Assembly (NCBI RefSeq): GCF_024502345.1
Contig: NZ_JALDNN010000001.1
Source of the DNA: Escherichia coli
GTDB lineage: Bacteria > Pseudomonadota > Gammaproteobacteria > Enterobacterales > Enterobacteriaceae
Length of the DNA: 64,000 nt
Reading direction: 5' to 3' (one strand)
Below the pieces are notes generated by a model that searched no databases, had not been told where the DNA came from, and was given only the letters and a program-made list of their open reading frames with translations. How positions within the stretch are numbered: position 1 is the first letter of the stretch; each line of letters starts with the position of its first letter. Shown here piece after piece: positions 42,336 through 43,007 of the stretch. Made by a program: the position numbers and the translations under genes.

Positions 42336-42650
42336 TTAATTTTCGAAAAATTGCTTCACAGCCCAGCCACCATGACCACCTGGAGTTATGAATGAAACAA
42401 AACCTTTGTCATCGACGCTCTGGATTTCTACCGTCATTGATTCATCTAACACGCGACATTTATTGGATGTAATGAGACTCAGCATAGCCTGTTGGTCATT
42501 GTCCTGGATGTAACTGATCATCTCGTAAAAGTCAGTTAACTTTTTACAGTTAAATGTACCTTCTTTAAGTGTTGCGCTGTCTCCGTGACTTAGTGCGAAT
42601 GCATTTGGCATCATTGCCACAAAGATGACGGTAACGAGTAGTTTTTTCAT
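42336..42650 (-). CDS. hypothetical small secreted protein (104 aa, 2 Cys)
   Basis: Signal peptide MKKLLVTVIFVAMMPNAFA; 9 bp downstream of the 115-aa ORF, so probably co-transcribed; no family recognised. Confidence 0.6.
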   Translation of the reverse strand: MKKLLVTVIFVAMMPNAFALSHGDSATLKEGTFNCKKLTDFYEMISYIQDNDQQAMLSLITSNKCRVLDESMTVEIQSVDDKGFVSFITPGGHGGWAVKQFFEN

Positions 42651-42659
42651 TTTAGCCTC

Positions 42660-43007
42660 TTATAATTCAGAACATTCACTGATGTTGTAAGTGCCTTTTC
42701 TACCATCATCGTTTACGAGATGTAGCACGAAGATGATGGGATTGGCATCAATGAAAGATACAGAGACGTTCCCGCTTTCGGTGCTATACATCTTTGCAAT
42801 CTGTTTTTCACCAATATATGAGAGATCCCAACTCACTCCGTTCAAGCTAAAATGCATCTGTTTGCCGTCAATATCGATGGAGGATTGTGCCGTAACGGTT
42901 TTCCCATTGCTGCCAATTTGATCCTGCTGAAGAGCATCACATTTATAGGAGCTTGCATAAGTAGATAGAGGTAGTAGCAGAAGTGCAGCAAAAATTTTAC
43001 TCTTCAT
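42660..43007 (-). CDS. hypothetical small secreted protein (115 aa, Cys near each end)
   Basis: Signal peptide MKSKIFAALLLLPLSTYA; SD-like sequence upstream; no family recognised. Confidence 0.6.
   Translation of the reverse strand: MKSKIFAALLLLPLSTYASSYKCDALQQDQIGSNGKTVTAQSSIDIDGKQMHFSLNGVSWDLSYIGEKQIAKMYSTESGNVSVSFIDANPIIFVLHLVNDDGRKGTYNISECSEL

What the first reader, a model, noticed from the sequence alone, without database searches (positions are those of the whole stretch)
42336..43007. Operon of two unrelated small Cys-containing periplasmic proteins
Both ORFs have clean Sec signal peptides (cleavage after AFA and TYA), mature sizes of about 85 and 97 aa, two cysteines each (the 115-aa one near its N- and C-termini, consistent with a disulfide), and are 9 bp apart. 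Pairs of tiny periplasmic proteins like this are typical of orphan immunity proteins or enzyme inhibitors, but no cognate toxin or enzyme gene is nearby. They are the only intact-looking genes of the islet.
Basis: inference. Interest (0 to 1): 0.5.

Follow-up and report, generated by a model that had tools for sequence, protein, structure and literature searches.

The report
Periplasmic protein pair from decayed island
Two small, unrelated secreted proteins of unknown function in an E. coli O157-type chromosome are real, strongly conserved genes, and they are the surviving middle piece of a mobile anti-phage "defence island" that normally inserts into the thiamine riboswitch in front of thiM.

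Summary
ORF-B (43007-42660, 115 aa) and ORF-A (42650-42336, 104 aa) are 9 bp apart on the minus strand. Each has a Sec-type signal peptide and two invariant cysteines. They are unrelated to each other and under strong purifying selection (dN/dS about 0.05-0.2). They are ECs2909 and ECs2910 of O157:H7 Sakai.

They match nothing in Pfam, NCBIfam or PADLOC, and no paper mentions them. The A model is an SH3/Tudor-like small barrel with a helical hairpin. The low-confidence B model is a generic 8-stranded barrel.

The main result is context. The 2.27-kb, low-GC islet (42225-44497) is a decayed remnant of a roughly 10-kb integrative island found in E. coli, Klebsiella, Citrobacter and Enterobacter. 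Intact islands are flanked by copies of the thiM TPP riboswitch. They carry a tyrosine integrase, a serine recombinase and variable defence cargo (TIR-STAND, SIR2, Abi, restriction enzymes including EcoBLMcrX).

The small secreted genes fill a conserved central slot beside the recombinase, as B+A, B plus a B paralog, a B paralog alone, or A alone. No periplasm-acting toxin is ever adjacent.

Function is untested. My best inference is stand-alone periplasmic protective binders. Interest is moderate to low.

The parts
42660..43007 (-). ORF-B: 115-aa exported protein (ECs2909, WP_000836936.1). The signal peptide is cleaved after TYA18. C23 and C112 are invariant. The predicted fold is all-beta with about 8 strands.
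42336..42650 (-). ORF-A: 104-aa exported protein (ECs2910, WP_000735648.1), named 'outer membrane protein' in RefSeq without support. The signal peptide is cleaved after AFA19. C35 and C65 are invariant. The predicted fold is an SH3/Tudor-like small beta-barrel with an inserted helical hairpin.
42299..42316 (-). Terminator-like hairpin GGCGTG-N6-CACGCC, 19 nt after the ORF-A stop codon. It is conserved after the last small gene in all related islands, whichever gene that is.
43008..43093 (-). The part of the operon's upstream region still alignable with intact islands. It contains a perfect -10 hexamer TATAAT at 43057-43052, 44 nt before the ORF-B start. The cluster of 3-4 GATC sites found here in intact islands is absent.
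42225..44497 (.). Whole islet: 2273 bp of low-GC foreign DNA replacing 90 bp of the K-12 rcnR-thiM spacer. It is a remnant of an integrative defence island. The integrase, the serine recombinase, the cargo, s74 and the second riboswitch copy are missing.
43163..43237 (+). Decayed C-terminal fragment of the 434-aa island integrase (SSGNKLHYLHTFPLSIAC*VIDSLC against ...RYLHTFPLSTVSYVVDGLC). It contains an in-frame stop.
44059..44316 (-). Intact HTH_73 (PF24718) gene. RefSeq aa of it. It is a homolog of ECD_02033, the first gene of the EcoBLMcrX operon of E. coli B. The mcrX gene that should follow it is absent here.
44501..44597 (+). TPP riboswitch of thiM. It is the attachment site of the island family and is duplicated at the integrase end of intact islands.

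Best explanation
Shown:
- ORF-B and ORF-A are two real, independently evolving genes for small exported proteins, each with a conserved cysteine pair. They are arranged as one transcription unit: a TATAAT box 44 nt upstream of B, a 9-bp spacer with an SD, and a conserved hairpin after A.
- They are the conserved central module of a family of roughly 10-kb integrative islands of Enterobacteriaceae. These islands integrate into the TPP riboswitch in front of thiM, or elsewhere when they carry a different integrase. They carry variable anti-phage cargo on both arms.
- In this window the integrase, serine recombinase, cargo and second att copy have been deleted. What remains is the pair, an integrase fragment and the HTH_73 gene of the McrX operon.
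- The slot next to the recombinase can hold B+A, B plus a B paralog, a B paralog alone or A alone. A and B are therefore interchangeable stand-alone units, not an obligate two-component system.

Inferred:
- After Sec export and DsbA-type disulfide formation, each protein acts in the periplasm as a compact non-enzymatic binder.
- The binder neutralises something that enters or crosses the periplasm. I favour a step of phage entry (tail-tip or DNA-ejection proteins, or phage lysozyme), that is, a superinfection-exclusion-like defence. This fits the defence-island context and fits retention of the genes after their neighbours were lost.
- In intact islands, expression is probably under Dam-methylation-sensitive control through the conserved GATC cluster. 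The window copy has lost that control region.
For: - Coding and selection: dN/dS is 0.05-0.23 for both genes. The cysteines are invariant and the signal peptides are variable but hydrophobic.
- Island context: an intact island in E. coli PEC389 is flanked by two TPP riboswitch copies. Riboswitch repeats also sit at both ends in Klebsiella, Enterobacter and C. koseri.
- Cargo: TIR+STAND NTPase, SIR2, HigB/M78/Beta_protein, FRG, Abi_alpha and a DNA methyltransferase-like ORF. DUF6998 matches PADLOC mREase_II and is the experimentally validated phage-restricting EcoBLMcrX of the thiM island of E. coli B (PMC5487053).
- Slot variants.
- No adjacent periplasm-acting toxin in any locus examined.
- A 36%-identical homolog of A, with a signal peptide and the same two Cys, lies among small accessory genes of Cronobacter plasmids that carry phage genes (minor capsid, PhoH, Gp49, phage Dam).
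- Both folds are small binding-type barrels with no catalytic family match.
- GATC cluster.
- Conserved terminator and promoter-proximal region.
Against: - There is no experimental or homology link to any known exclusion, immunity or inhibitor protein.
- PADLOC gives no credible hit.
- Neither protein is found in 50,697 phage genomes.
- Known superinfection-exclusion proteins are mostly membrane-anchored or lipoproteins, and these two are neither.
- Guilt by association in a defence island is weak for a conserved backbone module, which could instead serve the element itself.
- The ORF-B model is of low confidence (pLDDT 60), so its fold is tentative.
- The signal peptides were judged by eye only.
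- Expression in this strain is unknown. The islet is AT-rich and so may be silenced, and the native regulatory region is truncated.
Confidence: 0.35

Rival explanations
1. The pair are orphan immunity proteins against periplasm-acting interbacterial toxins, such as T6SS peptidoglycan amidases or glycoside hydrolases, colicin M-type toxins or pesticin-like toxins. They would be carried as interchangeable cassettes next to a recombinase, analogous to recombinase-associated acquired interbacterial defence arrays.
For: - Both are small, exported and disulfide-bearing, with no enzymatic motif.
- Slot content varies like cassettes: A, B', B+A, B+B'.
- The slot lies next to a recombinase with a res-like site.
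- The genes were retained without neighbours in O157.
- The precedent of recombinase-associated orphan immunity arrays in Bacteroidales comes from my own knowledge and was not tested here.
Against: - No homolog lies beside any toxin or effector, T6SS, Rhs or CDI gene in any locus examined.
- There is no match to any immunity family in Pfam.
- Purifying selection is strong and there is at most one paralog, rather than long diverse arrays.
- The B family is extremely narrow: 10 representatives in 1.84 billion, and 4 of 100,044 species genomes.
Confidence: 0.2
2. One or both are periplasmic inhibitors of a hydrolase. ORF-B would be a PliC/MliC-like lysozyme inhibitor, or both would be protease inhibitors, protecting the cell wall from host or phage enzymes.
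For: - ORF-B is located in the periplasm and has a terminal disulfide.
Against: - There is no Pfam hit to MliC, Ivy or any other family even at E<=10.
- The loop motifs I recall for PliC/MliC (SxSGAxY, YxxxTKG) are not present or conserved in the B alignment (motif from memory).
- ORF-A has an SH3-like fold that is not known among lysozyme inhibitors.
Confidence: 0.1
3. The module is a backbone function that serves the island rather than the host, or a passenger of a Tn3-like recombinase/res unit. Examples would be excluding competing islands or signalling. In the window it would be a relic with no current role.
For: - Apart from the integrase, the s74/B(A)/recombinase block is the only part conserved across islands whose arms differ, and even across islands with a different integrase.
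- A third small exported two-Cys protein (s74) is transcribed divergently from the same GATC-rich region.
- The window copy has lost that regulatory region, the recombinase and s74.
Against: - Exported proteins have no obvious route to act on island DNA transactions.
- The pair has remained intact and under purifying selection (dN/dS about 0.05 against the other islands, at dS>1.5), although that estimate covers the whole divergence and not only the time since the rest of the island was lost.
- It is >=99% conserved in 338 E. coli genomes.
Confidence: 0.15
4. They are general envelope or stress-related small periplasmic proteins, or host-interaction factors of O157-type strains, with no link to defence.
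For: - The ORF-A fold is shared (TM about 0.7-0.77, 20-24% identity) with many roughly 105-aa uncharacterised secreted proteins and lipoproteins of Pseudomonas, Burkholderia and others.
- The SH3b-type fold often binds cell-wall material (ranks 35 and 43).
Against: - The genes are confined to a mobile island with a patchy distribution: 343 of 5426 E. coli genomes and 4 loci among 100,044 species genomes.
- There is no match to known stress-protein families.
Confidence: 0.1

Closest known systems
Genome island adjacent to thiM carrying EcoBLMcrX in E. coli B (Fomenkov et al. 2017, PMC5487053)
   Same: It occupies the same chromosomal site, next to the thiM TPP riboswitch. It has the same HTH_73 first gene (ECD_02033; the window homolog is 94% identical to the PEC389 copy). 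It belongs to the same variable defence-island family.
   Different: The E. coli B island has mcrX but lacks the A/B pair. The window has the pair but lacks mcrX. The paper does not describe the integrase, the riboswitch att repeats or the secreted-protein module.
Phage- and prophage-encoded superinfection-exclusion proteins acting at the envelope (e.g. P1 Sim, T4 Sp/Imm, T5 Llp, phi80 Cor); comparison from my own knowledge
   Same: They are small envelope-located proteins carried by mobile elements that work alone, without a partner toxin, by blocking phage entry. A distant ORF-A homolog sits in the accessory region of a plasmid that carries phage genes.
   Different: There is no sequence or family relationship. 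A and B are soluble periplasmic proteins, not lipoproteins or membrane proteins. No phage phenotype has been tested, and they are absent from sequenced phages.
PliC/MliC periplasmic lysozyme inhibitors
   Different: There is no Pfam match. The model is of low confidence. Unrelated barrels score higher. The characteristic loop motifs were not seen.
Orphan immunity genes and recombinase-associated acquired interbacterial defence arrays (Bacteroidales; from my own knowledge)
   Same: They are small exported proteins in a variable slot next to a site-specific recombinase on a mobile element, with no toxin in cis.
   Different: The recombinase here is a serine recombinase, not a tyrosine recombinase. 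The slot holds only one or two genes rather than long arrays. No family match to any immunity protein exists, and no cognate toxin is known.
SH3 / Tudor / KOW-like small beta-barrels, including bacterial SH3b (for ORF-A)
   Different: ORF-A has an extra helical hairpin (residues 38-61) and an internal Cys pair. There is no sequence match to SH3 families. The closest full-length structural relatives are all uncharacterised.

Membership tests
Sec-exported periplasmic proteins | An N-terminal signal peptide with a positive n-region, a hydrophobic h-region and small residues at -3/-1. No lipobox and no further transmembrane segment. | tested here: met
   Judged by inspection of the sequences and of the conservation pattern in homologs. 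No dedicated predictor was available, and export was not shown experimentally.
MliC/PliC lysozyme inhibitors | A match to the Pfam MliC profile or its conserved lysozyme-binding loop motifs. | tested here: not met
   hmmscan against Pfam-A gave no hit for ORF-B even at E<=10. The motifs I recall from memory are not conserved in alignment A3.
MliC/PliC lysozyme inhibitors | An eight-stranded antiparallel beta-barrel fold. | tested here: inconclusive
T6SS / CDI / bacteriocin immunity proteins | The gene is adjacent to, or in other genomes linked with, a cognate toxin gene. | tested here: not met
   No toxin acting in the periplasm lies next to the genes in the related loci examined, from E. coli, Klebsiella, Citrobacter, Enterobacter and Buttiauxella plus metagenome and viral contigs.
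T6SS / CDI / bacteriocin immunity proteins | Sequence membership of a described immunity family. | tested here: not met
   Pfam and NCBIfam gave no hits.
Known anti-phage defence system proteins (PADLOC-DB 2.0) | A profile match to a component of a catalogued system. | tested here: not met
   ORF-A gave only a chance-level hit (HEC-01B, E=0.019). ORF-B gave none.
Outer membrane beta-barrel proteins (the RefSeq name of ORF-A) | A transmembrane barrel of at least 8 long amphipathic strands, with a C-terminal aromatic beta-signal. | tested here: not met
   The ORF-A model (pLDDT 83) is an SH3-like barrel with two helices in 85 mature residues. It ends in ...QFFEN. It matches no OMP family.
SH3-like small beta-barrel fold (ORF-A) | A five-stranded, strongly bent barrel that superposes on SH3/Tudor/KOW domains. 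| tested here: met
Integrative genomic island (tyrosine integrase with att duplication) | An integrase gene and direct repeats of the target at both ends. | tested here: not met
   In the window there is only a 25-codon integrase fragment and a single riboswitch copy. The feature is met in relatives, so the window holds a remnant and not an intact island.

The most novel reading that the evidence does not exclude
The s74/B/A genes would define a new class of soluble periplasmic defence factors. These would be stand-alone, interchangeable binder cassettes under Dam-methylation-dependent (possibly phase-variable) control. They would form the conserved core of a previously undescribed family of integrative defence islands that use the thiM TPP riboswitch as attachment site, and they would block phage entry or incoming periplasmic toxins.
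Probability: 0.2. Interest if true: 0.65.

Novelty: new member of a known kind. Interest (0 to 1): 0.35.

Why it matters
If the pair does protect the envelope, it would add a periplasm-acting, partner-free type of factor to the catalogue of defence-island genes. That catalogue is dominated by cytoplasmic systems. It would also explain why O157:H7-type strains keep these two genes after the rest of the island decayed.

Whatever the function, the analysis gives three practical results.
- It corrects an unsupported RefSeq name ('outer membrane protein').
- It places ECs2909 and ECs2910 in a defined mobile-element family.
- It shows that the variable 'thiM island' of E. coli (home of EcoBLMcrX) is an integrase-borne element that targets a riboswitch. 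This can be tested directly by excision PCR.

As it stands, these are two hypothetical proteins in a decayed islet. That is useful to annotate but not surprising.

Tried and rejected
- **Family searches.** Pfam, NCBIfam and PADLOC searches of both proteins gave nothing usable. PHROGs gave only exact-match families of unknown function, probably from prophage predictions that included this region.
- **PDB sequence profiles.** Only chance-level hits.
- **Remote homology.** The full HMM search of 1.84 billion representatives with the ORF-B profile found only 10 proteins, all of the same family. The one exception was a repetitive 734-aa protein with short repeated matches, which I regard as spurious.
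- **A and B as distant paralogs.** Rejected by hhalign.
- **Invertible promoter switch driven by the adjacent serine recombinase.** Rejected, because no consistent inverted repeats flank the module in four islands. The recombinase instead has a res-like motif cluster upstream of its own gene.
- **Phage origin.** Neither protein is found in 50,697 phage genomes. Only one IMG/VR contig carries ORF-A, and that contig looks like an integrase island rather than a phage.
- **Second riboswitch or att copy in the window.** None found.
- **Literature.** There is no hit for ECs2909, ECs2910 or my guessed EDL933 tags. There is also nothing on a riboswitch integration site.
- **The 950 bp between ORF-B and the HTH_73 gene.** Apart from the integrase fragment, it matches nothing in the related islands.
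- **Duplicate cluster listing.** The cluster look-up listed A and B under one cluster. I treat this as a look-up artefact.

Full report
**Where the window comes from**

The window is an Escherichia coli chromosome. Around the finding the gene order is yehB-yehA-rcnB-rcnA-rcnR, then the islet, then the TPP riboswitch-thiM-thiD-yegX. The islet DNA is 99.6-100% identical to O157:H7 strains and a few other E. coli. In strain Sakai the two ORFs are ECs2909 (115 aa, 'hypothetical protein') and ECs2910 (104 aa, 'outer membrane protein').

**The observation**

ORF-B (43007-42660) and ORF-A (42650-42336) lie on the minus strand, 9 bp apart. A GAGG Shine-Dalgarno sits in the spacer.

Both begin with textbook Sec signal peptides:
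- ORF-A: MKK-LLVTVIFVAMM-PNAFA|L
- ORF-B: MKSK-IFAALLLLPL-STYA|S

This gives mature sizes of 85 and 97 residues. Neither has a lipobox. I judged this by eye. It is supported by the alignments, where the first 18-19 residues vary freely but stay hydrophobic while the mature parts are highly conserved.

Each protein has exactly two cysteines: C35/C65 in A and C23/C112 in B. These are invariant even in homologs of 36-40% identity.

Profile-profile comparison aligns only the signal peptides, so the two proteins are unrelated.

They are real genes. Pairwise dN/dS against copies from Klebsiella, Citrobacter and other E. coli is 0.05-0.23, with synonymous divergence up to saturation.

A hairpin GGCGTG-N6-CACGCC (42299-42316) follows ORF-A. 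A perfect TATAAT lies at 43057-43052, 44 nt before the ORF-B start.

The islet also contains a third intact gene, an HTH_73 (PF24718) protein at 44059-44316.

**The islet**

Compared with K-12, homology stops at the rcnR stop codon (42224) and resumes at 44498, the start of the riboswitch. So 2273 bp replace 90 bp of K-12 spacer. GC is 31-41% against about 50-54% in the flanks. The pair occurs in 343 of 5426 complete E. coli genomes.

**What the proteins resemble**

Pfam, NCBIfam and PADLOC give nothing for either protein. PHROGs returns exact-match families of unknown function. PDB sequence profiles give only chance hits.

Homologs are confined to Enterobacteriaceae. A full HMM scan of 1.84 billion representative proteins with the ORF-B profile found 10 proteins. 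A scan of one genome for each of 100,044 species found 4 loci.

*ORF-A.* AlphaFold2 gave a usable model (pLDDT 83). It is a small bent barrel with a helical hairpin at residues 38-61.
- Foldseek finds many full-length look-alikes among roughly 105-aa uncharacterised secreted proteins and lipoproteins of Pseudomonas, Burkholderia and others. None has a known function.
- The RefSeq name 'outer membrane protein' has no support.

*ORF-B.* The model is weak (pLDDT 60). It is an 8-stranded up-and-down barrel whose first and last strands carry the two cysteines.
- This does not discriminate between functions.

**Neighbourhood analysis, the decisive part**

In Klebsiella and Citrobacter the same 115+104 pair sits next to thiM inside a larger element. 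The order in these elements is:
1. thiM and the riboswitch
2. a variable left arm (a 486-aa DEAD/ResIII helicase with small ORFs)
3. a divergently transcribed 74-aa gene (s74)
4. B, then A
5. a 185-191-aa serine recombinase
6. variable cargo
7. a 434-aa tyrosine integrase

E. coli PEC389 carries an intact copy at exactly the window's site. Its order is rcnR, a second TPP riboswitch copy, integrase, a 191-aa hypothetical protein, a TIR-domain protein, recombinase, A, B, s74, IS1, DUF6998, HTH_73, riboswitch, thiM.

Riboswitch segments are repeated at both ends in Klebsiella, Enterobacter and C. koseri as well. The element therefore integrates into the thiM TPP riboswitch.

The cargo is defence-type:
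- TIR + STAND NTPase
- SIR2
- HigB/Peptidase_M78/Beta_protein
- FRG and Abi_alpha
- a cytosine methyltransferase-like ORF
- DUF6998, which matches PADLOC mREase_II at E=2e-93

DUF6998 is EcoBLMcrX, the modification-dependent restriction enzyme of E. coli B. [quoted passage not shown] The window's HTH_73 gene is the homolog of ECD_02033, but mcrX is missing.

The window also lacks s74, the recombinase, the cargo, the second riboswitch copy and the integrase. The only trace of the integrase is a 25-codon C-terminal fragment with an in-frame stop at 43163-43237.

That fragment lies between ORF-B and the HTH_73 gene. This is not where the integrase sits in intact islands. The islet may therefore be the fused remains of two tandem insertions. 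This is an inference.

**The slot is variable**

An island with a different integrase (DUF6538 type), inserted elsewhere, keeps the helicase, small ORFs, B and a recombinase, but carries a 38%-identical B paralog in place of A. Islands in Enterobacter, Buttiauxella and C. koseri have the B paralog alone. An IMG/VR contig with the DUF6538-type integrase has A alone, between an XRE-like gene and a serine recombinase.

The same hairpin follows the last small gene in every case, and the B-A and B-B' spacers are both 9 bp. A and B are therefore independent, exchangeable units in one expression slot, not an obligate pair.

The divergent s74 protein is itself a small exported two-Cys protein.

A 36%-identical ORF-A homolog, with a signal peptide and the same two cysteines, lies in the accessory region of Cronobacter plasmids that carry phage genes (minor capsid, PhoH, Gp49, phage Dam methylase). 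It is followed by another small two-Cys protein with an N-terminal hydrophobic segment.

In none of these loci is there a toxin or effector that acts in the periplasm.

**Regulation**

In nine intact islands, three or four GATC sites sit at about -106, -93 and -74 from the first start codon. They lie within two roughly 17-bp repeats, where about 0.6 sites would be expected per 150 bp. This suggests control that is sensitive to Dam methylation. That is an inference.

The window copy has no GATC there and is alignable for only 86 bp upstream. No inverted repeats support an invertible switch. A cluster of GTCTCAAAA/TTTTGAGAC motifs just upstream of the 185-191-aa recombinase gene looks like a res site.

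**Interpretation**

What is shown:
- There are two real, exported, cysteine-paired small proteins in one transcription unit.
- They are the conserved central module of a riboswitch-targeting integrative defence island.
- The window holds only a decayed remnant of that island.

What is inferred is that they act in the periplasm as partner-free binders that neutralise something passing through the envelope. I favour phage entry, for four reasons:
- the defence-island context
- the relative of ORF-A on a plasmid that carries phage genes
- the interchangeability of the units
- retention of the pair under purifying selection after the neighbours were lost

The evidence is indirect, so I give this 0.35.

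The rivals, with the remaining probability spread over them:
- orphan immunity against interbacterial periplasmic toxins
- lysozyme or protease inhibition
- a function serving the island itself
- an unrelated envelope role

This weakens the version of the idea in which a cognate toxin was lost, but not the orphan version.

**Verdict**

It is best filed as uncharacterised cargo of a decayed mobile island of a known general kind. Interest is moderate to low. The one reading that would raise it is a new class of soluble periplasmic defence factors with epigenetic control.

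Noticed in passing
window 46273-47100 (stop at 46564-46566): yegX (GH25 muramidase-like, core gene) carries an in-frame TAA where K-12 has Gln (…DNGIRL*FAFIK… against …DNGIRLQFAFIK…). It is a pseudogene in this strain, although it is annotated intact in O157 FDAARGOS_293.
   Followed up: partly
L011 5713-5808 and 16602-16699; L002 about 4000-4248 and 14529-14602; window 44501-44597: The island family uses the thiM TPP riboswitch as its attachment site. Intact islands are flanked by a complete riboswitch next to thiM and a full or partial copy next to the integrase. I found no paper describing a riboswitch as an island integration site.
   Followed up: partly
L002 7540-7600, L006/L011/L012/L014-L018 equivalent; window 43008-43157: A cluster of 3-4 Dam (GATC) sites lies within two roughly 17-bp repeats, at fixed positions (-106, -93, -74) between the divergent s74 gene and the first small secreted gene, in nine intact islands. 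The cluster is absent from the window copy and from the A-only contig L022. It suggests methylation-dependent, possibly phase-variable, expression.
   Followed up: partly
L002 8396-8517; L011 11799-11920; L016 10457-10578; L017 10497-10618: A res-like cluster of GTCTCAAAA / TTTTGAGAC motifs lies in about 130 conserved bp directly upstream of the 185-191-aa serine recombinase gene. In Citrobacter L006 an IS (rve transposase) is inserted inside it.
   Followed up: partly
window 43163-43237 (+): A pseudogene fragment of the C-terminus of the island integrase (YLHTFPLS…, with an in-frame stop) lies between ORF-B and the HTH_73 gene, which is not its position in intact islands. The islet may be the fusion of two tandem island remnants.
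   Followed up: partly
window 44059-44316 (-): The HTH_73 gene is the homolog of ECD_02033, the promoter-proximal gene of the EcoBLMcrX restriction operon of E. coli B (PMC5487053). The enzyme gene itself (DUF6998) is absent, and homology to the intact operon ends 14 bp after the stop codon.
   Followed up: yes
protein P0041 (metagenomic, 103 aa): This is an in-frame fusion of the N-terminal 48 residues of the HTH_73 protein to the C-terminal half of a B paralog. It is evidence for deletions that join the left arm to the central module in other genomes.
   Followed up: no
L006 7248-7472 (-); L011 12846-13070: s74, the gene transcribed divergently from the pair in intact islands, also encodes a small exported protein with two cysteines (signal peptide …VSQMAAA|GQ). 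The central module therefore carries up to three such proteins.
   Followed up: no
L020 3766-4938 (Cronobacter sakazakii plasmid pCsaCS931a) and L021: A distant ORF-A homolog (94 aa, 36% identity) is followed by a 97-aa two-Cys protein with an N-terminal hydrophobic segment and a 146-aa multi-pass membrane protein. The plasmid carries phage genes (minor capsid, PhoH, Gp49, phage Dam, RNase HI).
   Followed up: partly
window 39337-40371 and the RefSeq annotation of 42336-42650: The RefSeq product name 'outer membrane protein' for ORF-A (WP_000735648.1) is propagated in several sources, but neither sequence nor model supports it.
   Followed up: yes
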